A DNA stretch of 64,000 nt from Blastocatellia bacterium (GTDB taxonomy: Bacteria; Acidobacteriota; Blastocatellia; UBA7656), in NCBI GenBank assembly GCA_036277095.1, contig DASUNP010000004.1:115300-179299 (forward strand), given 5' to 3'. Under the pieces are notes generated by a model. It was not told the DNA's origin. It did not search any database and saw nothing but the letters and a program-made list of their open reading frames with translations. The translations under genes were made by a program, and so were the position numbers. Each line of letters opens with the position of its first letter. The first letter of the stretch is position 1. Below, piece by piece: positions 43,280-63,042 of the stretch.

Positions 43280-44041
43280 ATGTGGGAGCGGACGAAACGG
43301 CTGATTAATTCTTATCTCGATGACCTGATCGAGCGGACGAGCGGGCCGGACCGCGACATACGCCAGATCACGCGCGCCGAGATCGCACGGCTCAACGAGC
43401 TTGAGGTACAGGCTCGCGCTTCGATCAAGATGCTTGAGAAGGAATTGGCCGAAGTTGAATTAAAGATGATAGCGCTCTCCGAGCGCCAGCGAATTGCCGC
43501 CGAGCGCGGTGACGCCGCAGCGGCAAGCTCGGCATCGAGCGAGCTCGTCTCGCTTTCATCGCACCGCGATTTTCTTAAACAACAGATAACCGAGGCGAAC
43601 TCGTCCGCCGCGCGCGCGCAGGCGCTCAGGGAACAGCGCCGCGCTATGGGAAACGAACTGGCGAACGAAACCTATCTGACCTCGATGCGAGAAAACATAG
43701 CCGGGCTTCAGTCTCCGTTTGACAAGAACGACCCGTCGGCAACGATAGACGAAATGCGCGCCCGGCTATCAAAGTATTCTGAACCGACAGTCGATTCGCG
43801 CGTGGCCGAAGCCGACCGCGAGCTTGAGGCTCAGCGAGCGCACTCGCAGGTCGATGAAATGCTCGCCCGCTACAAGCAATCTGTGAACGATCCTCCCGCT
43901 GCGTCGCGGGAGGCTGTCTCCCCGCCAGCGCAAACGCAGCCCGCAGCTTCCGCGCCGTCGAACGCTACGCCCGAAGACCAAGAGCCTGAACAGCCGAAAT
44001 CGCTCGGGCGCAACGAAGGCCCTGTGCGCCCGATTGATTGA
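43280..44041 (+). CDS. PspA/IM30 (phage-shock protein A / Vipp1) family protein
   Basis: MWERTKRLINSYLDDLIERTSGPDRDIRQITRAEIARLNELEVQAR parallels the PspA N-terminus (..[35 protein letters not shown]). Long coiled coil. Start trimmed to MWERTK. Confidence 0.65.
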   Translation: MWERTKRLINSYLDDLIERTSGPDRDIRQITRAEIARLNELEVQARASIKMLEKELAEVELKMIALSERQRIAAERGDAAAASSASSELVSLSSHRDFLKQQITEANSSAARAQALREQRRAMGNELANETYLTSMRENIAGLQSPFDKNDPSATIDEMRARLSKYSEPTVDSRVAEADRELEAQRAHSQVDEMLARYKQSVNDPPAASREAVSPPAQTQPAASAPSNATPEDQEPEQPKSLGRNEGPVRPID

Positions 44042-44058
44042 ATCACAAATTGATTGAA

Positions 44059-45573
44059 TCACAATCGGCTCTCTTCAAGTTCTTGAGTCACTGTTCGAAC
44101 CGCGAGCGGCAAACGGCATCGAAAAACCGTGCCTGTGTTGTCACTCTTTTCGACCGCGACATCCCCTCCGTGAGCTACGAGAATCTTCTGAACGATTGCA
44201 AGCCCAATCCCGTACCCCCGCGATTTCGTCGTGAAGAACGGTATGAAGATTCTATGCAAGTCGGTCGATGAAATGCCTCCGCCCGTGTCGCTGATGCGGA
44301 TGTTTGCATAGCGCCGGTCAGGCCCCGCGTCAATCGAGCCTGTGATCGAAATGAGCCGGCGCTCCGACTCGTTATCGATGGCTTCCGCCGCGTTGCGGAC
44401 AAGGTTGGAAATGGCGCTCCTTAGCAATGTCTCGTCGCCCGGAAGGTCAGGGAAGTCGCCTTCGACCTTCAGCTCGATCTGTTTCAGTTTGAGCTGTGGA
44501 TTTATCTCCTTAGCGCAATCATCGATGATCGAACGCAGGCTGATCTTCGAGAGGCTGAGCGTCTGCGGGCGCGCGAAATTCAAAAAGTCCGTCACCAACC
44601 GGGCCAGCATCCTTACTTCGTTGAGTGTTGCGTCGAGCGTCTGCCGCTTCTTGTCCTCCAAGGCTGAAGAGTCGCTCTGCGCGTCGAGCAACTGGACATA
44701 TCCGTGAATGGTCGCCAGGGAGTTCTTAAACTCGTGAGCAAGCCCCGCTGCCATCTCGCCCAGATTGGCAAGGCTCTCTTGAAGTTTCATTCGCTCGCGA
44801 AGCTCAATCACTTCGGTCAAATCAGTCATCATGCAGAGCGCGCCTTCGACGGCCCTGTCCGTGTCCGTGATGGGAGAGATGCTCAGGCCAAGATGACGCA
44901 CGCGGCCGTCTGCGAGCGTGACGTCGACCTCCTCGCGGCGAAAGGACTTGCCCGACGAAAGGCACTCAGAGAGAAGGTCGATCAATCGCGGCGCGGAGCC
45001 GAAGAAGTGCCGATAATCGACCTCAAATGCTTGCAACCCGTCTTCCGCGTCAAAGGTCTGTTGTTCGCCCGCGCGAGCATCCAGCCCGGAGAGAATTCTT
45101 CCGGCATGTGGGTTAGCAGTCGTGACGCGCCCCCTGGAATCGATGGCAACCAGCCCGCTCGGAATGTTGGCGATCAAGCGCTCGCTGAATCGCTCGCTTC
45201 TTTCGGCTCGCCTGCGCTCAAGCGCATGAAGCTCGGCAAGCTCCCTCTCTTTGGCTTGAAGCTGCTCGACCAGGGCTTGAAAAGTTTCGACCACAAACTC
45301 GCTTTCGCTCTTCGCCGACAGCGCGTGGACGGGGCTGCCGCGCGCCGCCTCAACCATGCGGCGGTAAGGCCGTAGCAGCCACCTGACGAAGAGGAATGTG
45401 AGGCCGAGGCCGAAAATGAGAGCGACTACGAGGAAGCTGAAAACGTATGAGGCAGCGGGCGACGAAGCGCGCTCGACAGGGCGCGCGATCAGCACGACCC
45501 CAAGCCCTATCGTTATGAGCAGGACTCCGATCAACAGGGCTATGAAGAGACGGGCTCTGCTTTCGACCCTCAT
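44059..45573 (-). CDS. sensor histidine kinase (two TM segments, PAS-like, HisKA, HATPase_c)
   Basis: H-box LGEMAAGLAHEFKNSLATIHGY. N/G boxes LVRNAAEAI...DTGGGI...GYGIGLAIVQKIL. Confidence 0.85.
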   Translation of the reverse strand: MRVESRARLFIALLIGVLLITIGLGVVLIARPVERASSPAASYVFSFLVVALIFGLGLTFLFVRWLLRPYRRMVEAARGSPVHALSAKSESEFVVETFQALVEQLQAKERELAELHALERRRAERSERFSERLIANIPSGLVAIDSRGRVTTANPHAGRILSGLDARAGEQQTFDAEDGLQAFEVDYRHFFGSAPRLIDLLSECLSSGKSFRREEVDVTLADGRVRHLGLSISPITDTDRAVEGALCMMTDLTEVIELRERMKLQESLANLGEMAAGLAHEFKNSLATIHGYVQLLDAQSDSSALEDKKRQTLDATLNEVRMLARLVTDFLNFARPQTLSLSKISLRSIIDDCAKEINPQLKLKQIELKVEGDFPDLPGDETLLRSAISNLVRNAAEAIDNESERRLISITGSIDAGPDRRYANIRISDTGGGISSTDLHRIFIPFFTTKSRGYGIGLAIVQKILVAHGGDVAVEKSDNTGTVFRCRLPLAVRTVTQELEESRL

Positions 45574-45594: not shown

Positions 45595-46440
45595 TCAGGC
45601 GGGTTGATCGATCACCGCTGCGTACTTATCGATAATAGGCAACACAGTCTCTCTATCTCCGGCTGGCACCAGGAAAATGACACGGTCCACGCCCGCCGTC
45701 GCAAGCTCATCTATTGCCGAGCGGTCAGGCATCACGCCGAAGATTGAGACGGAAATCGCTTTCGGGTCGCGGCCCGCCGCTTCGGCCCTGCGTCGCAGGT
45801 CTGCGATCTTCTCCGGTATGTTTGGAGAGCGCACGCCGATGGGCATCCACCCGTCACAGAATTCAATCACCCTGTCGAAAGTCGTAGGCCCATCGCCGCC
45901 CATCAAGATAGGCGGGTGCGGCTTCTGCGCGGGCTTTGGGTAGGACCATATCTTGTCGAAGTTCACGAACTCCCCGTGATATTCGGCTTCGTCCTTCGTC
46001 CAAATCTCTTTCATAGCCAGGATGCGCTCTCTCAAAATGCGCCAACGCTTCTTGAAAGGAGTGCCGTGGTTTTCCATCTCTTCTGCGTTCCACCCGCCGC
46101 CGATGCCGAACAGGAAGCGGCCATTCGATAATTGATCCAGGCTCGCAACTTCTTTCGCGGTAGTAATCGGGTCGCGCTCGACGATCAGGCAGATGCCGCT
46201 CGCGATCTTGAGTCGCTCGGTCGCCATTGCGGCAGCCGTCAGGGCTACGAACAGATCGTAAGTGTGCCAGTACTCTTTCGGCAGTTCAGGCCCGCCCGGC
46301 CAAGGGCTTCGGCGGCTAGCCGGTATGTGCGTGTGCTCGGGGAGCCACAGCGAATCGAAGCCGCGTTGCTCGACCTCGCGGGCGAGCTCATCGGGCCGAA
46401 TCGCGTAATCGGTCGCAAACATCGTGATGCCGTATAACAT
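45595..46440 (-). CDS. LLM-class (luciferase-like) flavin/F420-dependent oxidoreductase
   Basis: MLYGITMFATDYAIRPDELAREVEQRGFDSLWLPEH is the typical LLM N-terminus. Start trimmed to MLYGI. Confidence 0.8.
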   Translation of the reverse strand: MLYGITMFATDYAIRPDELAREVEQRGFDSLWLPEHTHIPASRRSPWPGGPELPKEYWHTYDLFVALTAAAMATERLKIASGICLIVERDPITTAKEVASLDQLSNGRFLFGIGGGWNAEEMENHGTPFKKRWRILRERILAMKEIWTKDEAEYHGEFVNFDKIWSYPKPAQKPHPPILMGGDGPTTFDRVIEFCDGWMPIGVRSPNIPEKIADLRRRAEAAGRDPKAISVSIFGVMPDRSAIDELATAGVDRVIFLVPAGDRETVLPIIDKYAAVIDQPA

Positions 46441-46467
46441 TTTCTTCTCCTTCTCTCTCAAAGCTAT

Positions 46468-47358
46468 TCAGCTCTCTTCTTTCTTGAAATGGAGTATGTC
46501 AAACAGGTCTCCCTTCCGCTCGTCGGACCAGACGGCCTGGACGCGCATCCCGCACCGGAGCGATTCGACCGGCTCCTCGATCAGGTGCGAGAAGTAAGTG
46601 CTCGCGCCGTCCAGAAGTATCAAGCCGTATGTGTAAGGCGGCTCGGTAGGCTGGCCGGGGAAGGGAAGATGAACTGTAGTAAATGTCTCAAGCACACCGT
46701 GGTCGCTCACCTCAACCCATTCTGTCGCCTCGACGAAACAGCGCGTGCAGATGCGCGCAGCCGGTACTGTAACCGACAAGCAGCGCGGGCATCGAGTCCC
46801 CATCAACCTTTTGTTGTCGCGAGACTCTTGAAAGAATCTTGAGAGAGCCTTTCCGTATGACCAGCGATAAGGAAGACTCACCTGACCCCTCACCTCTTTT
46901 AACGGCTGCGTAGTTGTCGCTTCTCTCTCAACGGTCGCATCTGCAAGAGGGACGAACTTGTCGATATCTAGTATGGTCCCTGAACGCTCTTCTTTGAACT
47001 TTGCCCGAACACGATCACCGGTTTTTAATCCCTCTTGCGCGAGATGGATCAGTTCGGTGTCTGCGCCGTCAAGTCTGACGAGCGCAAGCGTGTAAGGCGG
47101 CGGCAGCGGACTCCAGGGCAACTGGTAATGGACGGCTGAAGCGGCAATGATCTCGCCTTCGCCTGTAAGTTCCACCCACGCATCAAGCGGTTTGAAACAT
47201 TGACCGCAAACGTCTGTAGGCGGAACAAAGACTTTGTTGCACTCCGCGCATCTCGCGCCGACAATTCGGGCATTATCGCGCAACTCGGCGAGGAAGCGCC
47301 CGATCGCAGGCCCAGTTGTCCACTTGTAAGGAATTGTGATGTCGCCGTGTAAAATCAT
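46468..47358 (-). CDS. tandem DUF35 (Zn-ribbon + OB-fold) protein, thiolase-associated scaffold type
   Basis: Two repeats, each with a C4 zinc ribbon (CAECNKVFVPPTDVCGQC; CPRCLSVTVPAARICTRC) followed by an OB-fold region. DUF35 proteins are established partners of SCP-x-type thiolases and aldolases. Confidence 0.75.
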   Translation of the reverse strand: MILHGDITIPYKWTTGPAIGRFLAELRDNARIVGARCAECNKVFVPPTDVCGQCFKPLDAWVELTGEGEIIAASAVHYQLPWSPLPPPYTLALVRLDGADTELIHLAQEGLKTGDRVRAKFKEERSGTILDIDKFVPLADATVEREATTTQPLKEVRGQVSLPYRWSYGKALSRFFQESRDNKRLMGTRCPRCLSVTVPAARICTRCFVEATEWVEVSDHGVLETFTTVHLPFPGQPTEPPYTYGLILLDGASTYFSHLIEEPVESLRCGMRVQAVWSDERKGDLFDILHFKKEES

Positions 47359-47365
47359 AAACGTA

Positions 47366-48526
47366 TCAGTTCTTGTCTGTGCTCACGATCATCAAAGTGT
47401 GAAACTGAATCCCGCCGCCCCACCCGTGCGCGATGGCCGTCCGCGCCCCATCGATCTGATGCTGGCCCGCGCGCCCCATGACCTGCATGGCGGCTTCGGC
47501 CTGGCGCATCATCGCCGTCGCGCCGATCGTATTCGTAGACAAAACGCCCCCCGAAGGATTAACTGGTAAGTCCCCAGTCATCTCCGTAGCGCCTGATTCG
47601 ACGAGTTTTCCTCCCTCGCCACGCTCGCAAAAGAACATCGCTTCGGTCCACAGCATCTCCTGGAATGAGAAAGCCTCGTAAAGCTCTGCCACATCGATCT
47701 CGCGTCGCGGATCTGTGATGCCTGTCGTCTTGTAAACTTTCTTCGCAGCTTCCATCAACGCGAGCGGGTCGGCGAAGTTTCGACCGGCATAGTAAACGCC
47801 TTCGTTAAAGGTGGCCACCGCTTTTATCCATGCGGGCCGGTCGGCGTACTGTTCAGCCAGGCCCTCGCTCGCAATAACCATCGCGCAAGCGCCGTCGGAC
47901 GCCGGGCATGAGTCGAGCAGCTTTATCGGCGTCGACAACACCATAGAGTTCATCACCATCTCGACTGAGATGTTGGGAATGTGAAGCTGCGCGTAAGGAT
48001 TCAAGAGCGCGTTCTTCCGATTCTTGACGGCGACTAGCGCGGCCTGATGCTCGGTCACGCCGTACTTGTGCATGTACTGGCGCGCCTGGAGCGCGACGGC
48101 AGACGGCGCTCCGCACGCGAACTGGCGGCCAAGAATCGGGTCGTAAACAGTCGAGAGTCCCAATTGCACAGGGCTTTCTGAAAGCTTGTCACCCGTGACG
48201 GCTAGCACTGTGTCAAACATCCCGGCAGCAACGTAGTAAAAAGCGGCGATCCCCGTAGACGCGCCGACAGTCCCGCCCGTGTGAATGCGAATTTGAGGCT
48301 TTAAGAAAGCCCCTGAAGCGTCGGCGCACCACTGCTCAGGGTGGTTCACGCCTTCGAATAATTCGGGCGCGCTGCCGAAGACTACAGCGTCAACATCATC
48401 GATCGTTATCCCCGCGTCTTCAAGAGCACGAGTTGCGGCTTCGTAGATCAAGCCGGGGAAGCTCACGTCGTCGCGGCGCTCTTTGCACTTTGTCTGACCT
48501 GTGCCAACGATGGCTGCTCGTCTCAA
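47366..48526 (-). CDS. thiolase-like protein (SCP-x / nonspecific lipid-transfer-protein type)
   Basis: AIVGTGQTKC... N-terminus and overall thiolase fold. Active-site Cys region missing or altered, as in Ltp-type thiolases. Confidence 0.8.
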   Translation of the reverse strand: MRRAAIVGTGQTKCKERRDDVSFPGLIYEAATRALEDAGITIDDVDAVVFGSAPELFEGVNHPEQWCADASGAFLKPQIRIHTGGTVGASTGIAAFYYVAAGMFDTVLAVTGDKLSESPVQLGLSTVYDPILGRQFACGAPSAVALQARQYMHKYGVTEHQAALVAVKNRKNALLNPYAQLHIPNISVEMVMNSMVLSTPIKLLDSCPASDGACAMVIASEGLAEQYADRPAWIKAVATFNEGVYYAGRNFADPLALMEAAKKVYKTTGITDPRREIDVAELYEAFSFQEMLWTEAMFFCERGEGGKLVESGATEMTGDLPVNPSGGVLSTNTIGATAMMRQAEAAMQVMGRAGQHQIDGARTAIAHGWGGGIQFHTLMIVSTDKN

Positions 48527-48538
48527 GCTCCCCTCCGA

Positions 48539-49654
48539 TCAGGCTGACAACACATAGACGATATTCGATTGCAGGCAGAACCCCGATGTTGCGTGCGCGA
48601 CTGCATTTCCTCCGCGTTGCGAAATGCGATTGGCCGCTTCAGCAAGACGTATAAGACCTGTGGCAAAGATTGGATTGGCCGAGAGCGCTCCGCCGGATAG
48701 GTTTACGGGCAGGCGGCCATCTTCACGAGTCGCGCCGCTTTCGACCAGATGGCCGCCCTGGCCTTTTTCGCAGAAACCCAGAGCTTCGTAGATCATCAGC
48801 TCTTGAAACGAGAATGGCTCGTGAATCTCTGCGTAGGCAATCTCACGTTCAATGTCATGGATGTTTGCCATCTTGTAAGCACGCTCTGCGGCCTTGTGTG
48901 CCGAGCGTATCTCCGTCAAATCTCTATGGCCCGGATAAAAAGTGTCTGTCGAGAAACTGAGACCGCGAATCCATGCGGGCTTCATCTGAAAACGCTTCAC
49001 GGCATCTTCAGAGGCGAGCAGCAGAGCGCAGCAACCGTCGCTCACTGGCGACGCGTCGATCCGCTTGATCGGCGACGCAAGCAGAGGCGAGCGCATCACA
49101 TCTTCAACAGTGAGTTCGCCGCTAATCTGCGCGAACGGGTTCGAGAGGGCGTGCTTTCTATTCTTGATCGCGACGAGCGCGGCCTGCTCTTCTGTCACGT
49201 TGTAACGACTGAAGTAACACTGCGCCTGGAGCGCGGCGGCCGTGATCGCCTCGACGCCGAGCGGCCGAAGATAAAGCGGGTCGGCGATCATTCCTGAATA
49301 ATGCTGCGGCGAGCTGTCAGAGCCTTTGCTGTAAGCGTAAACAAGAGCCGTCTCGCATGCACCCGATGCGATTCGCATGAATGCGTACGATGCGGCGTAA
49401 GCGCCGTCGTCTTCGACCTTCGATTCTTCCTTCAGAAACGCTCCGGCGTACTCTGCTGTAAATACGTTTGAGATGCTCCGGCCGTCTAGCACGTCATCCC
49501 CGGCCCCTATGACCGCGTCCACGTCGCGGATGTCGAGCGAGACTTGATCCAGCAAACCGCGAACCGTCTCATAGATGATGTCTTCGACGTTTTGATCTGC
49601 GTTCCGCCGCTGGTGTCTCGACTGGCTTGAGCCGATTATGGCTACGCGCTGCAT
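48539..49654 (-). CDS. thiolase-like protein (SCP-x type), second copy
   Basis: MQRVAIIGSSQS... thiolase fold. Start trimmed to the ATG at 49654, which lies 7 nt downstream of the acyl-CoA dehydrogenase stop. Confidence 0.8.
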   Translation of the reverse strand: MQRVAIIGSSQSRHQRRNADQNVEDIIYETVRGLLDQVSLDIRDVDAVIGAGDDVLDGRSISNVFTAEYAGAFLKEESKVEDDGAYAASYAFMRIASGACETALVYAYSKGSDSSPQHYSGMIADPLYLRPLGVEAITAAALQAQCYFSRYNVTEEQAALVAIKNRKHALSNPFAQISGELTVEDVMRSPLLASPIKRIDASPVSDGCCALLLASEDAVKRFQMKPAWIRGLSFSTDTFYPGHRDLTEIRSAHKAAERAYKMANIHDIEREIAYAEIHEPFSFQELMIYEALGFCEKGQGGHLVESGATREDGRLPVNLSGGALSANPIFATGLIRLAEAANRISQRGGNAVAHATSGFCLQSNIVYVLSA

Positions 49655-49661
49655 ACTCTTT

Positions 49662-50831
49662 TTATCTGCCTTGTTTGAGGAATGATTTGATGAGCTCGTT
49701 GGCGATAACCATCTTCTGCACTTCGGACGTGCCCGCTCCGATCGTGCCGAGCCGCGCGTCACGATAGAAACGCTCGACAGGGTACTCGTGAATATAACCG
49801 TAGCCGCCGAAGACCTGGACCGCTTCATACGAGACGCGAACAGCGGCCTCCGTAGCCCAGAGCTTTGCGATGGCGGCCTCCATCATCGCCGATCTGCCCT
49901 GCTGTTTTAGCCACGCCACGCGGTAGACCAGCAGCCGCGCCGCTTCGACGGCGATCTTCATCTCGACAAGCTTTCGCTGTATGGCCTGGAACTCGGCTAT
50001 GGGCCGGCCAAACTGGTGGCGCTCCTTCGCGTACCTGGTTGAAACCTCTAGCATGAATTCCATGCCGCCAATTATGGGAGCGATCATGCAGCTGCGCTCC
50101 CACTCAAGCGTCTCTTTGCCTACGGCGATGAAGCCGAGGTCGGCGGGGCCTAGCAGGTTTTCGGCAGGCACTTCGCAATTGTCAAACGCGATCTCGGAAG
50201 TGACCGAAGTCCGATTGCCCATCTTCACAAGGTCCTTGCCTGACGAGAAGCCCGGGAAGTCGCGCTCGACTATGAATGTCGAGATGCCGCGATTGCCCGC
50301 GCCTTTGGCGGTCGAGGCGAATACGATGAAGATATTTGCGATCGGCGCGTTCGTGATAAACATCTTCGAGCCGTTGAGTATCCAGCGGTCGCCGCGCCGC
50401 TCAGCCGTCGTCTTCAACCCCGCTGCGTCAGAGCCTGACCCCGGCTCTGTCAATCCGAACGCGCCGACCCATTCGCCCGAACAGAGCTTTGGCAGGTATT
50501 TTTGCTTCTGCTCTGAAGTGCCTAGAAGCCAGATCGGGAGCCCGCAGAGAATCGTGTGCGCGCCCCAGGCCAGTGTCGTCCCGGCGTCTACGCCTGCGGC
50601 GCCCATAGCCTCCATCGCTATGCAGGTGGCGAGAGGCGATGCTTCGCTGCCGCCGTATTTTTCGGGGAAGGGCAGGCCGAGCAATCCCATCCCCGCGACT
50701 TCGCGCCAGTTCTCCCAACTGAACTCTCCGCGCGCATCAAGCTCTTCGGCGCGAGGCGCGAGCCGTTCTTTAGAGAAGCGATAAACAGCTTCCTTGAAAT
50801 CGAGATACTCTTGTGGGATTGAGAAGTCCAT
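49662..50831 (-). CDS. acyl-CoA dehydrogenase
   Basis: ACAD motifs GAFGLTEPGSGSDAAG, YASTAKGAGNRGISTF and C-terminal QVFGGYGY. Start trimmed to MDFSIPQEY. Confidence 0.85.
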   Translation of the reverse strand: MDFSIPQEYLDFKEAVYRFSKERLAPRAEELDARGEFSWENWREVAGMGLLGLPFPEKYGGSEASPLATCIAMEAMGAAGVDAGTTLAWGAHTILCGLPIWLLGTSEQKQKYLPKLCSGEWVGAFGLTEPGSGSDAAGLKTTAERRGDRWILNGSKMFITNAPIANIFIVFASTAKGAGNRGISTFIVERDFPGFSSGKDLVKMGNRTSVTSEIAFDNCEVPAENLLGPADLGFIAVGKETLEWERSCMIAPIIGGMEFMLEVSTRYAKERHQFGRPIAEFQAIQRKLVEMKIAVEAARLLVYRVAWLKQQGRSAMMEAAIAKLWATEAAVRVSYEAVQVFGGYGYIHEYPVERFYRDARLGTIGAGTSEVQKMVIANELIKSFLKQGR

Positions 50832-50880
50832 CCGGAGCGGCAAGATTAGCACAAACCGCAGAGGCGTTCCAAATACCAGG

Positions 50881-50910
50881 AAGATTATTAAACTGAAGAT
50901 TATTAAACTG
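50881..50910. repeat. perfect tandem direct repeat, 2 x 15 bp (AAGATTATTAAACTG)
   Basis: aagattattaaactg aagattattaaactg. It overlaps the stop of the 137-aa ORF and lies about 30-50 nt upstream of the acyl-CoA dehydrogenase start (minus strand). AT-rich in a GC-rich context. Confidence 0.7.
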
Positions 50911-51316
50911 TGGTATTGCCCGTGTACTCTGGGTCCAGTTCAGTGGCGGGCGCTCCGAGGTGGTCAGCCGCGCGCAAGACGAGACTGTTATCAACGTAGA
51001 AAGATAAACGAGCGGAGCGGTTGTGTTTGACCGGCGCTCCGCACACGCGCAGGTTATAACCCGCGAGCTCGAGCGTGATCTTATAACCCTGGCAATGCGG
51101 GACCATGATCTTTTTGAAATCCAGGACGCCCGAGCCCTGGCGCAGCGCATCTTCAATGTTGCTCTTGACGACGCGGGCAAAGCTCCAGAGCGCGACCGCT
51201 GTGTTGTACTCGTTTTCAGCCATGCGGGCTTCGCGCATCGCAAGCATCCGCTTGTAGACGTGCAGATCGAGCGCGATCAGGAATACTGCCGCAAGAGTTA
51301 TCAGAATAATTGACAT
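50903..51316 (-). CDS. hypothetical protein with N-terminal TM anchor (137 aa)
   Basis: MSIILITLAAVFLIALDLHV is a single N-terminal TM helix. No recognisable domain. Confidence 0.4.
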   Translation of the reverse strand: MSIILITLAAVFLIALDLHVYKRMLAMREARMAENEYNTAVALWSFARVVKSNIEDALRQGSGVLDFKKIMVPHCQGYKITLELAGYNLRVCGAPVKHNRSARLSFYVDNSLVLRAADHLGAPATELDPEYTGNTTV

Positions 51317-51479: not shown

Positions 51480-51749
51480 TTAAATGAACTCAGGAATCTT
51501 CTGCGCGACGAAAAGCTTATCGCCGTATTTGACAAAGAACTCGTCTTCGTCAGGCTCAGAATTATTCGTGATCCTCAGCGGAATCCCGTACCCCTCCTGT
51601 TTGAGGTCGGGCGGCCTCGTGACAAGCAGCAGAATCTCAACTCCGGGCTTTAGCTCGACATTCTCATCAACAACGATATCGTACTGATTTCGTTGGTCAG
51701 CCGCCTGCTGGTCCGCGCGGCCCGCCTCTACGCCTTTAAGCTCGATCAT
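51480..51749 (-). CDS. hypothetical small acidic protein (89 aa)
   Basis: Intact ORF. No motif recognised. Confidence 0.3.
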   Translation of the reverse strand: MIELKGVEAGRADQQAADQRNQYDIVVDENVELKPGVEILLLVTRPPDLKQEGYGIPLRITNNSEPDEDEFFVKYGDKLFVAQKIPEFI

Positions 51750-55007: not shown

Positions 55008-56726
55008 ATGCCCGCAAAACTTTTGAGCAAGCTGCCTGTTCGCCGGTTGGGATTACCGCTGGCTGCCGAGTCGCTTGTAAGAAATATCTTATTGGTTGGC
55101 TTCTGCGTGCTGTTGCTGTTGGTCGTGGGGCTCGGCTACTGGAGCCGGGAGAGCTTCCTCCAGGTCGAAGATGAAATCGCCTTCATCAAACAGTCTGAAT
55201 CCAAGCACGTGCATACTGCTTTGAGTATCGAAGGGACCATAGGAAAGATGGCCGCAGAGGCCCGCGCGGCTGCTGACAGCGGGCAGAATCGGCTGCTGCG
55301 GTTTCCCGCTCAGCAGCGGCTCAAGCAGCTCAAGATTGAGATGGACGGCTATCTCGACGAAGGGCGAAGAAGCAGCATGGCCTCGACGCAGGAATGGCAA
55401 GAACTTGAGCAGGCTTTCCAGACCTACTGGAACACGATCAACTCGGATAAACCCGTCGACTGGTTTGAAGAGAGAAAACAGATCACGGACGCCGTAAACG
55501 AGCTTGAACGGTGGACGAGTGCAGAGCGCGAGGAGAATGATCGGAAGGCGCAAGCGCTCAGTCGCCTGGCGAGGAATAGGGTCCTCATGGCTACTTGGGC
55601 GGCTATAATCGTCGGGCTTGTCGTCGCGGGGCTGACTTTTTACGAGATAAGGAGAATACTCGCGCGGCTAGGCAATTCGTACAGAGAGAGCTCTGAAGCT
55701 CGCGACTATTTGCAATCGCTTTTCGACAGCCTAGTCTCAGGCGTTGTCGTCATCGGGCAGGAAGGCGGCGTCCAGTCAGTAAGCAGCTCTTTTCGAAACG
55801 TGATGGGGCTGGACGCGGACGAGGCGTTGAACGCGAGCTACGCGGAGGTGCTGGGGGACAAACATGCTTTGATCGAGGCAGTAGGCGAGTACCTCGAAAA
55901 CAAGCCATCGGGCAGCCGCTATTTCGGGCGTCACGAGATGGTTGAGTCAAGACTGTTCGATGTGTACGGCTCGCCACTTATGATCGCAGAAGAACAGCGC
56001 GGCCTGATACTCGTCTTCGTAGAGATGACCGAAGTCGAGCGAGCGCAATCCGAGCTGCGCCGCAACCGCGCGCTTTCTGCAGTCGGCCAGATGACAGCCC
56101 AGATCGCGCACGAGATAAAAAACCCGCTTGGCAGCATACGCTTTGCCACAGAGGTCTTAAAACGCAGAGGCGACCAGAGTCAGGAATCAAAAGACACGCT
56201 TGAAGTGATAGACCGCAGCGTCGATCACCTGGCGGCCATCGTCTCTGAGCTTTCAGAGTTCGCGCGGCCAAAGGAGCTTAACCGCACAGAGACGGACCTG
56301 AACAAGCTGCTCGACGATCTGATGCCGATGGTAGCCGACCGTCTCAGCGACAAGGAGATGCGGATCAGGAGAGAATACGCGGATGATCTGCCTAGCGCTT
56401 CATTCGACCCGACAGAGCTGAGAAAGCTCTTCTTGAATCTGATAATAAACGCTATAGATGCGAGCGAGCCGGGAAGCGAGATCGAGGTAAAGACGAGCGT
56501 CGCGGCGAGGGGGCTGGTTACAGTGGCCGTGACGGACCACGGGGCGGGGATGGACCCCGAGACGCGAAGGCGCGTCTTTGAGCCGTTCTACACGACCAAG
56601 CAGGCGGGCACGGGTCTTGGCATGGCCATAGCGAAAAAGATCGCCGAACTGCACAGGGGCGACCTGGGTGTGGCAAGCCGATTGGGCGAAGGGACTACTA
56701 TCACTGTGAGGCTTCCGGTAGAATAA
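55008..56726 (+). CDS. sensor histidine kinase (NtrB/AtoS-like; 2 TM, periplasmic/coiled region, PAS-like, HisKA, HATPase_c)
   Basis: H-box LSAVGQMTAQIAHEIKNPLGSI. N/G boxes NLIINAIDA ... DHGAGMD ... GTGLGMAIAKKI. Its ATG is 3 nt after the SbcC-like stop, and a GAAGGGG SD sits inside the upstream gene. Confidence 0.85.
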   Translation: MPAKLLSKLPVRRLGLPLAAESLVRNILLVGFCVLLLLVVGLGYWSRESFLQVEDEIAFIKQSESKHVHTALSIEGTIGKMAAEARAAADSGQNRLLRFPAQQRLKQLKIEMDGYLDEGRRSSMASTQEWQELEQAFQTYWNTINSDKPVDWFEERKQITDAVNELERWTSAEREENDRKAQALSRLARNRVLMATWAAIIVGLVVAGLTFYEIRRILARLGNSYRESSEARDYLQSLFDSLVSGVVVIGQEGGVQSVSSSFRNVMGLDADEALNASYAEVLGDKHALIEAVGEYLENKPSGSRYFGRHEMVESRLFDVYGSPLMIAEEQRGLILVFVEMTEVERAQSELRRNRALSAVGQMTAQIAHEIKNPLGSIRFATEVLKRRGDQSQESKDTLEVIDRSVDHLAAIVSELSEFARPKELNRTETDLNKLLDDLMPMVADRLSDKEMRIRREYADDLPSASFDPTELRKLFLNLIINAIDASEPGSEIEVKTSVAARGLVTVAVTDHGAGMDPETRRRVFEPFYTTKQAGTGLGMAIAKKIAELHRGDLGVASRLGEGTTITVRLPVE

Positions 56727-61638: not shown

Positions 61639-63042
61639 ATGGAAAACGTTGTGCTGATAGTCGACGACGAGCCGGCCGCGCGATACGGGATGAGGCGGGC
61701 GCTCGAAAAGGAAGGGCATAGGATATTTGAAGCCGACAGCGTCGCTTCTGCCGAACAGGTAGTCGATAGCCAATCGCCAAGCGTCATACTTCTGGACGTA
61801 AAGTTAGCCTCAGAATCGGGGCTTGATTACCTGCCCGAGTTGGTCGCGCGAAAGGAGGCGCCGGTCGTCATCATAGTCACAGCGCATGGCTCGGAGCGGC
61901 TCGCCGTTGAGGCGATTAAGAAGGGCGCTTTTGATTACCTCGCCAAGCCTTTTGACGTCGATGAGCTGCGGATACTTGTAAGAAACGCGCTCGGCGCTTA
62001 CAGGCTCAGGACTGAGAACGAGCAGCTTCGTAATGAGCTGTCGGGAACCGAGACCTATGGTCAGTTGATAGGCTCATCACCGGCCATGTCGAGGGTCTAT
62101 TCACTCATCGAAAAGATTTCGCAGACGGACGTGAGCGTGCTGATAATGGGCGAATCAGGCACGGGCAAAGAGATGGTCGCCAGGGAGATTCACGCGCGCA
62201 GCAGGGCGGGAGCTGGCCCTTTTGTTGCGCTCAATTGCGCCGCGATGCCGGAGGAATTGATCGAGTCCGAGCTATTCGGTCACGAGAAAGGGGCCTTTAC
62301 CGGCGCGACGGGGAAGAGAATTGGCAAGTTTGAGGCAGCCAACAAAGGGACTCTCTTTTTGGATGAGATCGGCGATATGAGCCTCTCGACACAGGCAAAG
62401 GTTCTGCGTGTGATTGAGGAAAAGAAGTTCCAGCGGCTGGGTAGCAATGAGCTTCTTTCGACCGACGTTCGGATTATTAGCGCGACCAACAAGAATCTGG
62501 AAAAAGAGGTCGAGCAGCAACGATTCAGGGAAGATTTATTCTACCGTCTAGCGGTCGTCTCCCTGACCCTTCCGCCACTCAGGGAACGAAAGACCGACAT
62601 ACCGGCGCTTGCCCAGTCATTCTGCGACAGATATTCGGTGGCTTATAGAACAGGCCCTTTAAGGATCTCAAAACCAGCCCTTAAAGTAATGCTTGAGCAT
62701 GGCTGGCCAGGCAACGTTAGACAACTTCGTAATGTAATTGAGCGATCTGTAGTTCTTACTGAAGGTGAAGAAATTACATTAGATGTATTGCCTCAAGAAT
62801 TAACGGCTAAACAATTCCAGGAAGAGGTGATAGCAGATCTCTCAGGCGGGATAAATATACCCCTCTCGTTAAACTTTAAGGATGCAAAAAGAGAGTTTGA
62901 GCGAAAATACATCGAACGGTGTTTAGAAAGCACATCCGGGAACATCACGCAGGCGGCATCCATGCTTGGTATGCACCGTCAAAGCCTTCAGCATAAGATT
63001 AAAGAGCTTGGGCTGACCAAACGCTTTATTTCGACAGACTAA
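61639..63042 (+). CDS. sigma-54-dependent two-component response regulator (NtrC/AtoC family bEBP)
   Basis: Receiver domain (VLIVDDEP, D in LLDVKL). AAA+ sigma-54 activation domain with Walker A GESGTGKE, the GAFTGA motif and an arginine finger. C-terminal Fis-type HTH. Confidence 0.9.
   Translation: MENVVLIVDDEPAARYGMRRALEKEGHRIFEADSVASAEQVVDSQSPSVILLDVKLASESGLDYLPELVARKEAPVVIIVTAHGSERLAVEAIKKGAFDYLAKPFDVDELRILVRNALGAYRLRTENEQLRNELSGTETYGQLIGSSPAMSRVYSLIEKISQTDVSVLIMGESGTGKEMVAREIHARSRAGAGPFVALNCAAMPEELIESELFGHEKGAFTGATGKRIGKFEAANKGTLFLDEIGDMSLSTQAKVLRVIEEKKFQRLGSNELLSTDVRIISATNKNLEKEVEQQRFREDLFYRLAVVSLTLPPLRERKTDIPALAQSFCDRYSVAYRTGPLRISKPALKVMLEHGWPGNVRQLRNVIERSVVLTEGEEITLDVLPQELTAKQFQEEVIADLSGGINIPLSLNFKDAKREFERKYIERCLESTSGNITQAASMLGMHRQSLQHKIKELGLTKRFISTD

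What the first reader, a model, noticed from the sequence alone, without database searches (positions are those of the whole stretch)
45595..50910. Beta-oxidation-like cluster: ACAD + two SCP-x-type thiolase-like proteins + fused double DUF35 + LLM oxidoreductase, preceded by an AT-rich 2x15-bp direct repeat
Seen in sequence. The minus-strand order is ACAD (49662-50831), then two thiolase-like genes (48539-49654 and 47366-48526, gaps 7 and 12 nt), then a protein with two complete Zn-ribbon/OB-fold DUF35 units (46468-47358), then a luciferase-like oxidoreductase (45595-46440). A perfect tandem repeat AAGATTATTAAACTG x2 lies 30-50 nt upstream of the ACAD start.

Established knowledge. DUF35 proteins scaffold SCP-x-type thiolases and aldolases in benzylsuccinate beta-oxidation (BbsAB), steroid side-chain cleavage (Ltp2-ChsH2) and the archaeal thiolase/HMG-CoA synthase complex.

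Inference. The cluster is probably a dedicated pathway for an unusual branched, aryl or steroid-like acyl-CoA. The direct repeat is a plausible operator for a regulator, since a direct repeat suits a tandem-binding TetR/IclR/GntR-type protein.
Basis: partly seen in the sequence, partly recalled or inferred. Interest (0 to 1): 0.5.

Follow-up and report, generated by a model that had tools for sequence, protein, structure and literature searches.

The report
Ltp3/Ltp4-like aldolase operon with tandem DUF35
A soil Blastocatellia bacterium carries a small operon for two thiolase-shaped proteins that have lost the thiolase catalytic residues, so they probably act as a paired aldol-cleaving enzyme held by a double zinc-ribbon/OB-fold clamp; the short DNA repeat upstream is a recent duplication with no sign of being a regulatory site.

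Summary
The 2x15-bp repeat is real.

The two "thiolases" are not thiolases. Both lack the nucleophilic Cys, the catalytic His and the HDCF Cys.
- The second one (beta, 386 aa) keeps an invariant Tyr at the site of the catalytic base of the steroid aldolases Ltp2 and Sal. It is 48% identical to a Rhodococcus Ltp3.
- The first one (alpha, 371 aa) is a degenerate Ltp4-like partner.
- The fused double DUF35 matches the uncharacterised Rv3521-type protein encoded beside ltp4/ltp3.

The order alpha-beta-DUF35-DUF35 is kept in every related locus fetched with enough flank, drawn from about seven labelled phyla. Most sit among housekeeping genes. The DUF35 units occur fused to each other, split, or fused to an SCP2 domain or an acyl-CoA ligase.

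The adjacent ACAD has the isovaleryl-CoA dehydrogenase type of catalytic-base placement. The luciferase-like oxidoreductase occurs only in this lineage.

The repeat is single-copy in the nearest relative, and the spacer that holds it is absent in another relative, so nothing supports an operator.

Verdict: a new member of the Ltp3/Ltp4 heteromeric aldol-lyase kind. Substrate unknown, probably a beta-branched lipophilic acyl-CoA.

The parts
51480..51749 (-). 89-aa ORF of unknown function; first gene of the conserved block
   Evidence: Called at the same place in the close relatives L001-L003 and L035. No Pfam or PHROG hit.
50903..51316 (-). 137-aa ORF of unknown function with a hydrophobic N-terminus, directly upstream of the ACAD
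   Evidence: Its C-terminal coding sequence aligns in L001, L012, L014 and L017. In L014 its stop lies 2 nt from the ACAD ATG, which suggests co-transcription. No family hit.
50881..50910 (.). Perfect tandem duplication, 2 x AAGATTATTAAACTG; overlaps the stop codon of the 137-aa ORF
   Evidence: Single copy in L001/L003. Identical duplication only in L035, a second assembly of the same strain. The spacer is not conserved.
49662..50831 (-). Acyl-CoA dehydrogenase (389 aa) with IVD-type placement of the catalytic base
   Evidence: Pfam ACAD N, M and C domains. Best solved relatives are the isovaleryl-CoA dehydrogenases 4o5m and 4kto. It has 'IGAGTSE' in place of the MCAD 'YEGT' Glu, and 'LEWER' aligned to the IVD 'LDYER'. 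The same motifs occur in module-adjacent ACADs of L007, L012, L014, L017 and L004; L019 keeps the C-terminal motif.
48539..49654 (-). Alpha subunit: Ltp4-like thiolase-fold protein (371 aa), predicted non-catalytic
   Evidence: Three-residue deletion at the nucleophile site, HEPF for HDCF, Asn for the catalytic His. The HDCF-site residue varies (H/Y/S/T/C) across 28 alpha sequences. NCBIfam PRK07937 (Ltp4 model) scores 247.7 bits, below the 419 cut-off. It is 33.6% identical to a Rhodococcus Ltp4.
47366..48526 (-). Beta subunit: Ltp3-like thiolase-fold protein (386 aa), predicted catalytic (aldolase)
   Evidence: Gly85 replaces the nucleophilic Cys, Y283-E-A-F replaces HDCF, and Asn332 replaces the catalytic His; all three hold in 33 of 33 beta sequences. 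Invariant in beta but variable in alpha: T83, C207, Y283, W293. PRK08313 (Ltp3 model) scores 467 bits against a 514 cut-off, with the next model at 315. It is 47.7% identical to a Rhodococcus Ltp3. AF2 model pLDDT 88, pTM 0.91, SCP2-thiolase fold, TM up to 0.92.
46468..47358 (-). Tandem DUF35 protein (296 aa): unit D1 about residues 1-137, linker about 138-155, unit D2 about 156-296; both four-Cys zinc ribbons intact
   Evidence: Pfam finds two stretches each of zf-ChsH2 and OB_ChsH2_C. AF2 model pLDDT 88.5, with two units of identical secondary-structure order and a disordered linker at 141-144. Foldseek matches only single-DUF35 chains: BbsA, ChsH2-DUF35, 3irb, 6esq_E, Shy-DUF35. It is colinear at 34% identity with the Rhodococcus Rv3521-position protein. 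In most Blastocatellia it is split into D1-SCP2 and D2.
45595..46440 (-). Luciferase-like (LLM) oxidoreductase, TIGR03619 (Rv2161c-type, predicted F420-dependent)
   Evidence: above the curated cut-off. Nearest solved relatives are F420-dependent Mer and hydroxymycolate dehydrogenase. Present only in the window, L001-L003 and L035; absent from the 26 genome loci.
44059..45573 (-). PAS sensor histidine kinase (AtoS-like by best hit, below cut-off), 21 nt downstream of the LLM gene
   Evidence: A 63-66% identical kinase follows the module in nearly all Blastocatellia-type loci with enough flank, including L013.

Best explanation
The core of the cluster is a four-domain module: alpha, beta and two DUF35 units (D1, D2). 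It encodes a heteromeric enzyme of the Ltp3/Ltp4 type that has a thiolase fold but is not a thiolase.

Proposed roles:
- Beta is the catalytic subunit. It most likely performs a retro-aldol (aldol-lyase) cleavage of a 3-hydroxyacyl-CoA into a short acyl-CoA plus a carbonyl compound. The invariant Tyr283 would act as base on the beta-hydroxyl, as in Ltp2 and Sal. The proton donor would be a residue other than those used by Ltp2 or Sal; invariant Cys207 is the leading candidate.
- Alpha is a degenerate structural partner.
- The tandem DUF35 protein is the zinc-ribbon/OB-fold staple that holds the two subunits together. D1 and D2 are distinct types. In other lineages they also tether an SCP2 lipid-binding domain or the acyl-CoA ligase.
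- The IVD-type ACAD upstream would desaturate a beta-branched acyl-CoA. Hydration must be supplied by a gene elsewhere in the genome.
- The lineage-specific LLM oxidoreductase may reduce or oxidise the carbonyl product.

The 2x15-bp repeat is a recent slippage-type tandem duplication of the 3' end of the upstream ORF, with no evidence of regulatory function.

Shown: gene content, loss of the thiolase residues, conservation patterns, synteny, the fusion variants, and non-conservation of the repeat.
Inferred: complex formation, aldolase chemistry, subunit roles, substrate class.
For: 1. Loss of the thiolase catalytic residues in both proteins, read against the archaeal thiolase 6esq and 7yvy and across 28 alpha and 33 beta sequences.
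2. In beta, Tyr is invariant at the HDCF/YDHF/YDCY position and Gly sits at the nucleophile position. PMC12329534 reports this same Tyr as the catalytic base of TcLtp2 (Tyr294) and CtSal (Tyr302), and a Gly at the nucleophile site of CtSal.
3. Active-site positions are invariant in beta and variable in alpha.
4. Homology to Rhodococcus Ltp3, Ltp4 and the Rv3521-position protein at 47.7%, 33.6% and 34% identity. These sit in a fadD19/echA19-type steroid locus and hit the PRK08313 and PRK07937 models above cut-off. PMC6678751 describes Ltp3-Ltp4 as a heteromeric aldol-lyase.
5. The order alpha-beta-D1-D2 is kept in all genome loci with enough flank; the 26 loci carry seven or so phylum-level labels.
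6. In Leptospiraceae locus L037 a MaoC hydratase directly follows beta, and an acyl-CoA ligase is fused to a D2-type DUF35. In the spirochaete-like locus L036 the ligase-DUF35 fusion recurs. In Actinomycetota loci a conserved AMP-binding gene follows D2. The L037 gene set is the ligase / hydratase / aldolase logic known from ChsH1-ChsH2-Ltp2 and Shy-Sal.
7. The DUF35 fold of both halves is supported by the AF2 model and its Foldseek matches.
8. The ACAD has the IVD-type catalytic-base placement, shared with module-adjacent ACADs in other phyla.
9. Repeat: one copy in L001/L003, no spacer in L014, and another tandem repeat in the same lineage varies in copy number.
Against: - No hydratase, ligase or carboxylase lies in the window cluster, so the pathway is incomplete as encoded here.
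- Beta has neither the Ltp2 acid (Tyr344; Asn332 here) nor the Sal acid (Cys304; Ala285 here), so the aldolase chemistry is not fully transferable.
- No member of the Ltp3/Ltp4 branch has published enzymology in the library searched.
- Beta and alpha score below the curated Ltp3 and Ltp4 family cut-offs.
- The high conservation of beta (54-89% identity in the genome loci, across phyla) in housekeeping neighbourhoods could point to a different, central reaction.
- The linker between D1 and D2 is only about 20 residues, and the quaternary arrangement could not be modelled.
Confidence: 0.55

Rival explanations
1. The two proteins are genuine 3-ketoacyl-CoA thiolases scaffolded by DUF35, like benzoylsuccinyl-CoA thiolase BbsAB. 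They would complete a beta-oxidation cycle begun by the ACAD.
For: Public annotation of homologues reads 'acetyl-CoA C-acetyltransferase' or 'thiolase domain-containing protein'. The fold is that of an SCP2-thiolase, with BbsB among the top structural matches. An ACAD is adjacent.
Against: The nucleophilic Cys is absent: Gly in beta, a deletion in alpha. The catalytic His is replaced by Asn in both. The HDCF Cys is absent. This holds in all beta sequences and, apart from one paralogue with His at the His site, all alpha sequences examined.
Confidence: 0.04
2. The complex is a Cys-independent decarboxylase or other enolate-forming enzyme acting on a carboxylated acyl-CoA. The model is the weak malonyl-CoA decarboxylase activity reported for the Cys-less TbSLP. 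It might remove the carboxyl group introduced on a beta-branch.
For: TbSLP, a Cys-less SCP2-thiolase-like protein with a Tyr in a YDCF motif, decarboxylates malonyl-CoA slowly (PMC12329534). TbSLP is a structural match to beta. The oxyanion-hole Asn and His residues conserved in both subunits (N323, H367) would suit enolate chemistry.
Against: The same paper argues that TbSLP is more likely an aldolase, and that CtSal has no such activity. MaoC hydratase linkage in L037 fits a hydroxyacyl-CoA substrate better. No carboxylase is linked in any locus.
Confidence: 0.12
3. The module works in the synthetic direction or as an acyltransferase, like the DUF35-containing PhlABC and MucABC complexes or the archaeal thiolase/HMG-CoA synthase complex. 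It would make a C-C bond for a lipid or secondary metabolite rather than degrade one.
For: PhlC and MucABC chains and the archaeal thiolase are structural and sequence relatives that use DUF35 scaffolds. Aldol reactions are reversible. Housekeeping neighbourhoods and high conservation would suit a biosynthetic role.
Against: The solved PhlC-type homologue was studied as a C88S active-site variant (9skm). From my own knowledge, not re-read here, both PhlC and the archaeal thiolase act through a Cys nucleophile, which is absent from alpha and beta. No KAS III-like PhlA or HMGCS partner is encoded here. Partners found in relatives are catabolic in type: ACAD, ligase, MaoC.
Confidence: 0.1
4. Neither subunit is an enzyme. 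The complex would be a lipid or acyl-CoA binding and transfer device or a sensor input, as the legacy name 'lipid-transfer protein' suggests, perhaps feeding the adjacent histidine kinase.
For: The canonical catalytic residues are lost. An SCP2 lipid-binding domain is fused to D1 in most Blastocatellia. Sensor kinases recur next to the module in three lineages.
Against: The polar residues at the former active site of beta are strictly invariant while the same positions drift in alpha. That is the signature of one catalytic and one structural subunit. The Ltp relatives Ltp2 and Sal are proven enzymes.
Confidence: 0.08
5. The 2x15-bp direct repeat is an operator bound by a tandem-binding regulator that controls the operon.
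For: It is a perfect, AT-rich direct repeat 50-79 nt upstream of the ACAD start. It is kept in a second assembly of the same strain.
Against: - One copy only, with 2 mismatches, in the closest relative, where an unrelated 110-nt hairpin insert follows it.
- The spacer is absent in L014 and unalignable in L007, L012 and L017.
- The first copy is simply the end of the upstream ORF including its stop codon.
- No other copy in the window or in 36 other loci.
- No DNA-binding regulator gene is adjacent.
- Another tandem repeat at a gene end in this lineage varies between 2 and 3 copies.
- No promoter-like site is called nearby.
Confidence: 0.05

Closest known systems
Ltp3-Ltp4 heteromeric aldol-lyase with the adjacent Rv3521-type protein (Mycobacterium / Rhodococcus KstR regulon; C24-branched sterol side-chain degradation)
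   Same: - Same three-protein architecture: a degenerate, shorter thiolase-like subunit, a roughly 390-aa subunit with Gly at the nucleophile site and an invariant Tyr in Yxx[F], and a roughly 300-aa tandem DUF35 protein encoded beside them.
- An LLM oxidoreductase gene is also adjacent in Rhodococcus.
- Beta's best family model is the Ltp3 model.
   Different: - Identities are only 48%, 34% and 34%, and scores fall below the curated family cut-offs.
- Gene order here is alpha-beta-DD, against DD-alpha-beta in Rhodococcus.
- No fadD19, echA19, cyp, kstR or any steroid gene is nearby.
- Both zinc ribbons are intact here, whereas the actinobacterial D1 unit has lost its Cys ligands.
- The LLMs are only 28% identical, so they are not orthologues.
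- The host is an Acidobacteriota (Blastocatellia) MAG.
ChsH1-ChsH2(DUF35)-Ltp2 and Shy(DUF35)-Sal steroid side-chain hydratase-aldolase complexes (PDB 6ok1, 9myr)
   Same: A thiolase-fold aldolase without the nucleophilic Cys, with Tyr at the first position of the HDCF-equivalent motif as the catalytic base, stapled by a Zn-ribbon/OB DUF35 domain.
   Different: - Ltp2 and Sal are homodimers flanked by two identical DUF35 domains that belong to a MaoC hydratase. Here there are two different subunits and two different DUF35 units in one chain, with no hydratase.
- The acid catalysts of Ltp2 (Tyr344) and Sal (Cys304) are replaced by Asn332 and Ala285.
[quoted passage not shown]
   Same: An SCP2-type thiolase fold plus a DUF35 subunit. 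These are among the closest solved sequences and structures.
   Different: The archaeal thiolase 6esq shows an intact Cys/His active site in the alignments here. BbsB is deposited as a thiolase, but its residues were not inspected here. Alpha and beta have lost that active site. Each of these complexes has a single DUF35 per thiolase subunit and no tandem fusion.
Isovaleryl-CoA dehydrogenase (PDB 4o5m, 4kto, 1ivh)
   Same: Best solved matches of the ACAD. They share the 'IGAGTSE' C-terminal motif and a Glu in the 'L-[DE]-x-E-R' helix.
   Different: Overall scores are nearly equal to those for butyryl-CoA dehydrogenases (339 against 336 bits). No NCBIfam equivalog cut-off is reached. The genomic partner is the alpha/beta module, not a Liu-type carboxylase, hydratase and lyase set.

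Membership tests
Thiolase (EC 2.3.1.9 / 2.3.1.16), SCP2-type | Nucleophilic Cys at the N-terminal 'CxS' elbow | tested here: not met
   Beta has Gly85 (HTGGTVG). Alpha has a 3-residue deletion at that point. Both were read against Cys85 of 6esq.
Thiolase (EC 2.3.1.9 / 2.3.1.16), SCP2-type | Catalytic His of the G-H-P motif and acid/base Cys of the HDCF motif | tested here: not met
   His is replaced by Asn in both. HDCF becomes YEAF in beta and HEPF in alpha.
Thiolase superfamily, SCP2-thiolase fold | Five-layered thiolase fold with the Thiolase_C_1 domain | tested here: met
   Pfam PF22691 in both proteins. AF2 model of beta has pTM 0.91 and TM 0.85-0.92 to SCP2-type thiolases.
Ltp3 family (NCBIfam NF006180 / PRK08313) | Score at or above the curated cut-off (514 bits) | tested here: not met
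   Beta scores 467 bits. This is its best model by 150 bits but is below the cut-off. The Rhodococcus Ltp3-position protein scores 751.7.
Ltp4 family (NCBIfam NF005924 / PRK07937) | Score at or above the curated cut-off (419 bits) | tested here: not met
   Alpha scores 247.7 bits. The Rhodococcus Ltp4-position protein scores 613.
Ltp3/Ltp4 heteromeric aldol-lyase system | Adjacent genes for one degenerate and one Tyr-bearing thiolase-like subunit, plus a tandem-DUF35 (Rv3521-type) gene | tested here: met
Ltp3/Ltp4 heteromeric aldol-lyase system | Location in a steroid catabolic (KstR) gene cluster with fadD19 and echA19 | tested here: not met
   No such genes in the 64-kb window or in the Blastocatellia relatives.
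Ltp3/Ltp4 heteromeric aldol-lyase system | Retro-aldol activity and a physical alpha/beta complex | not testable with these tools
   Needs protein biochemistry. No enzymology for this branch was found in the library.
Ltp2-type steroid aldolase | Catalytic Tyr pair: Tyr294 of YDHF plus Tyr344 | tested here: not met
   The first Tyr is present (Y283). The position 50 residues downstream, which is the thiolase His site, is Asn332.
Sal-type bile-acid aldolase | Tyr302/Cys304 dyad in YDCY, with Gly at the nucleophile site | tested here: not met
   Tyr and Gly are present. The Cys position is Ala285 (YEAF).
DUF35 (zf-ChsH2 + OB_ChsH2_C) scaffold proteins | Rubredoxin-like four-Cys zinc ribbon followed by an OB fold, encoded next to a thiolase-fold partner | tested here: met
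   Two complete units. AF2 model plus Foldseek hits to BbsA, ChsH2-DUF35, Shy-DUF35, 6esq_E and PhlB. The Cys ligands of both ribbons are visible in the alignment.
Isovaleryl-CoA dehydrogenase-type ACAD | Catalytic Glu on helix G, with Gly/Ala at the MCAD Glu376 position | tested here: met
   'LEWER' aligns with 'LDYER' and 'IGAGTSE' is shared with 4o5m and 4kto. Substrate specificity was not tested.
TIGR03619 F420-dependent LLM oxidoreductases | Score above the curated cut-off; use of F420 | tested here: inconclusive
   The score criterion is met (273.8 against 166.9). Cofactor use and the presence of F420 biosynthesis in this organism cannot be tested from the window.
Operator / regulator-binding direct repeat | Conservation in orthologous promoters, further copies in the regulon, and a cognate regulator gene nearby | tested here: not met
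   No TetR/IclR/GntR gene is adjacent.

The most novel reading that the evidence does not exclude
The alpha-beta-D1-D2 module would be a widespread, biochemically uncharacterised family of heteromeric thiolase-fold lyases. It would extend well beyond actinobacterial sterol catabolism, into Acidobacteriota, Planctomycetota, Thermodesulfobacteriota, Syntrophomonadaceae, Leptospiraceae and abundant marine spirochaete-like bacteria.

It would use a third catalytic solution, with Tyr283 paired with Cys207 or another residue, distinct from both Ltp2 and Sal.

Its DUF35 units would act as interchangeable docking adaptors that recruit whichever pathway partner a lineage needs: an SCP2 domain, an acyl-CoA ligase, a hydratase, or simply each other. 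Its substrate would be a common beta-branched lipid such as an isoprenoid- or hopanoid-derived acyl-CoA, not a steroid.
Probability: 0.35. Interest if true: 0.6.

Novelty: new member of a known kind. Interest (0 to 1): 0.4.

Why it matters
Thousands of homologues of these proteins are annotated in public databases as acetyl-CoA acetyltransferases or thiolases, yet they cannot perform thiolysis.

Recognising the alpha/beta/tandem-DUF35 module as an Ltp3/Ltp4-type lyase would do three things:
- It gives a testable function to the unstudied Rv3521 family of Mycobacterium tuberculosis and its relatives.
- It supplies soluble non-actinobacterial orthologues, with intact zinc ribbons, for structural work on the only steroid side-chain lyase still lacking enzymology in the literature searched.
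- It offers new C-C bond-cleaving or bond-forming biocatalysts for branched acyl-CoAs.

It also shows that DUF35 acts as a portable docking domain.

For the genome scan, the result is a caution. A perfect short direct repeat at a gene end in this lineage is a copy-number-variable duplication, not a regulatory site.

Tried and rejected
- Sigma-54 or sigma-70 promoter reading of the conserved 'TTGGAACG...TGTGCTAATCTTGCC' stretch. By eye the GG-GC spacing is one base short of the sigma-54 consensus. The consensus scan found no promoter-like site on the coding strand near the operon start, and overall fewer sites than in shuffles. Dropped.
- The LLM as a conserved part of the module. tblastn found it in none of the 26 genome loci, and the Rhodococcus LLMs are only 27-28% identical. 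It is lineage-specific here.
- A steroid or aromatic catabolic island. The Pfam survey of the remaining window ORFs shows housekeeping genes only.
- A conserved catabolic neighbourhood across phyla. A pooled Pfam scan of 77 neighbouring ORFs gave mainly housekeeping families. Only AMP-binding enzymes, GAF/PAS kinases and ACADs recur.
- HMG-CoA-lyase-like role in leucine catabolism, suggested by the IVD-type ACAD. This cannot be excluded. The SCP2 fusion in most Blastocatellia and the absence of linked carboxylase or hydratase genes argue for a lipophilic substrate.
- Scanning genomes with the broad 16-sequence DUF35 alignment failed because no conserved stretch was long enough. A narrower alignment worked.
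- The Wilbrink 2012 ltp3/ltp4 paper is not held. Its content is cited only through PMC6678751 and PMC6593523.
- PHROG scan of the two small upstream ORFs: no hits.

Full report
**Observation**

All five genes are present on the minus strand at the stated coordinates and carry the stated domains.
- ACAD, 49662-50831.
- Two thiolase-like genes, 48539-49654 and 47366-48526.
- A 296-aa protein with two complete zf-ChsH2 + OB_ChsH2_C (DUF35) units, 46468-47358.
- A luciferase-like oxidoreductase, 45595-46440, which passes the curated cut-off of TIGR03619.

The gaps of 7 and 12 nt are right. The following gaps are 7, 27 and 21 nt, so the PAS histidine kinase at 44059-45573 is probably co-transcribed.

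The 15-bp unit AAGATTATTAAACTG occurs twice in perfect tandem at 50881-50910. Two details differ from the finding:
- The repeat lies 50-79 nt upstream of the ATG at 50831. Relatives show this ATG to be the conserved start.
- Its distal copy contains the last codons and the TAA stop of a conserved 137-aa ORF, 50903-51316.

**Source**

The beta protein is 100% identical to a protein that NCBI lists from a 'MAG TPA: Blastocatellia bacterium'. Close relatives (91% identity in the DUF35 protein) come from farmland-soil and other metagenomes with the same gene order. The rest of the window is housekeeping: pyridoxal synthase, aspartate kinase, homoserine dehydrogenase, DFP, guanylate kinase, DAC, phosphoglucomutase and an SbcC-like ATPase, plus an unrelated kinase and a sigma-54 response regulator. 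There is no steroid, aromatic, carboxylase, hydratase or CoA-ligase gene.

**The two 'thiolases' are not thiolases**

I aligned both proteins to the archaeal thiolase 6esq and to 7yvy.
- The second protein (beta) has Gly85 where the nucleophilic Cys should be, YEAF where SCP2-type thiolases have HDCF, and Asn332 where the catalytic His should be.
- The first protein (alpha) has a three-residue deletion at the nucleophile position, HEPF, and Asn.

I then extracted 28 alpha and 33 beta sequences from related loci.
- Every beta has HTGG (or HTAG or YTGG), an invariant Tyr in Y-x-[AP]-F, and Asn.
- Every alpha has the deletion. All but one paralogue (L004, which has His) have the Asn. The HDCF-site residue of alpha drifts among H, Y, S, T and C.

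A column-by-column comparison shows T83, C207, Y283 and W293 invariant in beta and variable in alpha. That is the pattern expected of one catalytic subunit and one structural subunit.

**What the catalytic pattern resembles**

PMC12329534 reports that the steroid aldolases TcLtp2 and CtSal are thiolase-fold proteins without the nucleophilic Cys. CtSal has Gly at that position. The Tyr at the first position of the HDCF-equivalent motif (Y294DHF in Ltp2, Y302DCY in Sal) is the catalytic base on the beta-hydroxyl. Beta shares that Tyr and the Gly.

It does not share either known proton donor.
- Ltp2 uses Tyr344, 50 residues downstream at the thiolase His site. Here that position is Asn332.
- Sal uses Cys304, the third motif position. 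Here it is Ala285.

So beta resembles these aldolases in its base but would need a third solution for the acid. The invariant, beta-specific Cys207 lies three residues before the conserved S-D-G segment, and it is the obvious candidate. This is an inference only, because no coordinates could be inspected.

**Family placement**

By NCBIfam, beta's best model by 150 bits is PRK08313 (467 bits, cut-off 514). Alpha hits PRK08313 (258.6 bits) and PRK07937 (247.7 bits, cut-off 419).

I fetched a Rhodococcus locus through a tandem-DUF35 homologue. It contains an AMP-binding gene, an enoyl-CoA hydratase, an LLM, a 324-aa tandem DUF35 protein, a 353-aa and a 391-aa thiolase-like protein, a second LLM, a TetR, a P450 and a thiolase. 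This matches my recollection of the fadD19-echA19...Rv3520c-Rv3521-ltp4-ltp3 region of the KstR regulon. Of that layout, the papers read here confirm only two things: the divergent Rv3520c/Rv3521 pair (PMC1995591) and the proximity of Rv3521 to ltp4 (PMC9782250).

Its 391-aa and 353-aa proteins score 752 and 613 bits on PRK08313 and PRK07937, so those models represent Ltp3 and Ltp4. Identities to the window proteins are 47.7% (beta to Ltp3), 33.6% (alpha to Ltp4) and 34%, colinear (tandem DUF35).

The literature describes Ltp3-Ltp4 as a heteromeric aldol-lyase. It cleaves the C24-C25 bond of C24-branched sterol side chains after desaturation, C28 carboxylation and hydration (PMC6678751; PMC6593523). 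Rv3521 homologues are still called hypothetical proteins (PMC9782250). In the searchable library the only paper that mentions both DUF35 and Ltp3 (PMC10398937) does not connect them.

The window cluster is therefore a distant, non-actinobacterial member of this kind. It does not fall within the curated Ltp3 or Ltp4 families.

**The module is widespread and modular**

A genome scan with a DUF35 alignment returned 26 loci. By their record titles they come from Blastocatellia, Actinomycetota (including Acidimicrobiales, Geothermincola and Anoxymicrobiaceae), Planctomycetota, Thermodesulfobacteriota and Syntrophomonadaceae MAGs. In every locus with enough flank the order is alpha, beta, D1, D2. 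Beta is 54-89% identical to the window protein in these loci, and alpha is 43-74% identical.

The two DUF35 units are distinct types and occur in several arrangements:
- Fused to each other, as in the window, L004, L009, L021 and Rhodococcus.
- Split into two genes, as in L013, L019, L020, L023 and L031.
- In most Blastocatellia, as D1 fused to an SCP2 domain plus a separate D2.
- In a Leptospiraceae genome and in a spirochaete-like bacterium seen on at least 183 contigs, with Tara Oceans among its sources: a D2-type unit (54% identical to the window's C-terminal half in the spirochaete-like L036, 44% in the Leptospiraceae L037) fused to the C-terminus of an acyl-CoA ligase. In the Leptospiraceae locus a MaoC hydratase gene directly follows beta.
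- In Actinomycetota loci a conserved AMP-binding gene follows D2.

An exhaustive search of 1.84 billion representative proteins with the tandem protein gave 68 hits at E <= 1e-30. By my reading of the 150 best hits:
- roughly 45 are colinear tandem proteins of 280-345 aa;
- about seven are ligase-DUF35 fusions;
- the rest are mostly single-unit DUF35 proteins.

The AF2 model of the tandem protein has pLDDT 88.5. It shows two units with the same secondary-structure order and a disordered linker at residues 141-144. Foldseek matches only single-DUF35 chains, including BbsA, ChsH2-DUF35, Shy-DUF35, the archaeal DUF35 and PhlB, so no tandem DUF35 appears among the solved matches. Beta models confidently (pTM 0.91) as an SCP2-type thiolase fold.

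**Accessory genes**

The ACAD's best solved relatives are isovaleryl-CoA dehydrogenases. It shares their 'IGAGTSE' motif, which lacks the MCAD-type Glu, and it has a Glu in 'LEWER' aligned with the IVD 'LDYER'. As I recall the enzymology, this is the IVD-type placement of the catalytic base, associated with beta-branched or bulky substrates. ACADs of 57-84% identity sit next to the module in Blastocatellia, L004 and the Thermodesulfobacteriota locus L019. All keep the C-terminal motif, and all but L019 matched the 'LEWER' pattern.

The LLM occurs only in the window's own lineage. Its nearest structures are F420-dependent enzymes. In Rhodococcus, non-orthologous LLMs also flank the module.

A PAS kinase follows the module in nearly all Blastocatellia-type loci with enough flank.

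**Mechanism proposed**

A beta-branched, probably lipophilic acyl-CoA is desaturated by the IVD-type ACAD and hydrated by an enzyme encoded elsewhere. The alpha/beta complex then cleaves the resulting 3-hydroxyacyl-CoA by retro-aldol chemistry. Tyr283 of beta acts as the base. Alpha serves as the structural partner. The tandem DUF35 staples the heteromer. The LLM may process the carbonyl product.

Complex formation, the chemistry and the substrate are all inferences. The loss of thiolase residues, the asymmetry between alpha and beta, the homology to Ltp3/Ltp4/Rv3521, the synteny and the fusion patterns are shown.

**The repeat**

The closest relatives (L001, L003) carry one copy of the unit (GGTTTAATGATCTT), followed by an unrelated insert of about 110 nt that contains a long hairpin. 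In L014 the upstream ORF's stop lies 2 nt from the ACAD ATG. In L007, L012 and L017 the spacer is unalignable. The duplication is found only in a second assembly of the same strain.

A second perfect tandem repeat in the window (16 bp x2 at 44033-44064, between convergent gene ends) is present in three copies in L001. Short copy-number-variable duplications at gene ends are therefore a habit of this lineage. No regulator gene is adjacent, and no promoter-like site is called there. I conclude that the repeat is real but is a recent duplication with no evidence of operator function.

**Verdict**

The locus is a new, distant member of the Ltp3/Ltp4/Rv3521 kind. Its main value is as evidence that this uncharacterised lyase module is widespread outside sterol catabolism and uses DUF35 as a portable adaptor. 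Interest is moderate.

Noticed in passing
window 44033-44064; L001 13300-13350: A perfect 16-bp tandem repeat (ATTGATTGAATCACAA x2) spans the stop codons of two convergent genes. The near-identical unit is present in three copies in the closest relative, so the repeat varies in copy number.
   Followed up: partly
window 44059-45573; L007 9359-10864; L021 3108-5132; L037 10785-14770: Sensor histidine kinases without an adjacent response regulator recur next to the alpha/beta/DUF35 module. A PAS kinase lies downstream in Blastocatellia, a GAF kinase upstream in Acidimicrobiales, and PAS and GAF hybrid kinases downstream in Leptospiraceae. The reason is unknown.
   Followed up: partly
window 50903-51316 and 51480-51749: Two small ORFs (137 aa with a hydrophobic N-terminus, and 89 aa) with no family hits. 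The 137-aa ORF's coding sequence aligns upstream of the ACAD in four Blastocatellia loci, and in L014 it appears translationally coupled to the ACAD. The 89-aa ORF is called only in the closest relatives.
   Followed up: partly
L001 6350-6470: The closest relative has an insert of about 110 nt with a long inverted repeat (cacagaggcaccgagagacagag...ctctgtctctgcgagtctctgtgg) between the 137-aa ORF and the ACAD. The insert is absent from the window. It may be a small mobile or REP-like element.
   Followed up: no
L004 1871-10942: One 3.17-Mb contig carries two paralogous alpha/beta pairs side by side. One pair has its two DUF35 genes flanking it; the other is followed by a fused tandem DUF35. Nearby lie an Fe-ADH::SCP2 fusion, ACADs, a B12-dependent acyl-CoA mutase, a BKACE enzyme and a further thiolase/DUF35 pair.
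   Followed up: partly
L013 (CAZTUB010000030.1): The contig is labelled 'uncultured Clostridia bacterium', but its beta, D1, D2 and kinase genes are 65-88% identical to the Blastocatellia window in the same order. This looks like a binning or labelling error.
   Followed up: no
L007 11624-12704; L013 4880-5878; L021 5129-5626: A Metallophos_2 phosphoesterase gene accompanies the module in Blastocatellia, where it lies after the kinase together with a DUF4112 gene, and in Acidimicrobiales, where it lies directly upstream of alpha. It is not next to the module in the window.
   Followed up: no
window 55008-56726 and 61639-63042: A second histidine kinase and a sigma-54-dependent response regulator lie about 4 and 11 kb beyond the operon's upstream end. 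No link to the cluster was established.
   Followed up: no
alignment A2: P0101, P0103, P0108: In actinobacterial Rv3521-type proteins the N-terminal DUF35 unit has lost its zinc-ribbon Cys ligands. The Blastocatellia protein keeps both four-Cys ribbons.
   Followed up: partly
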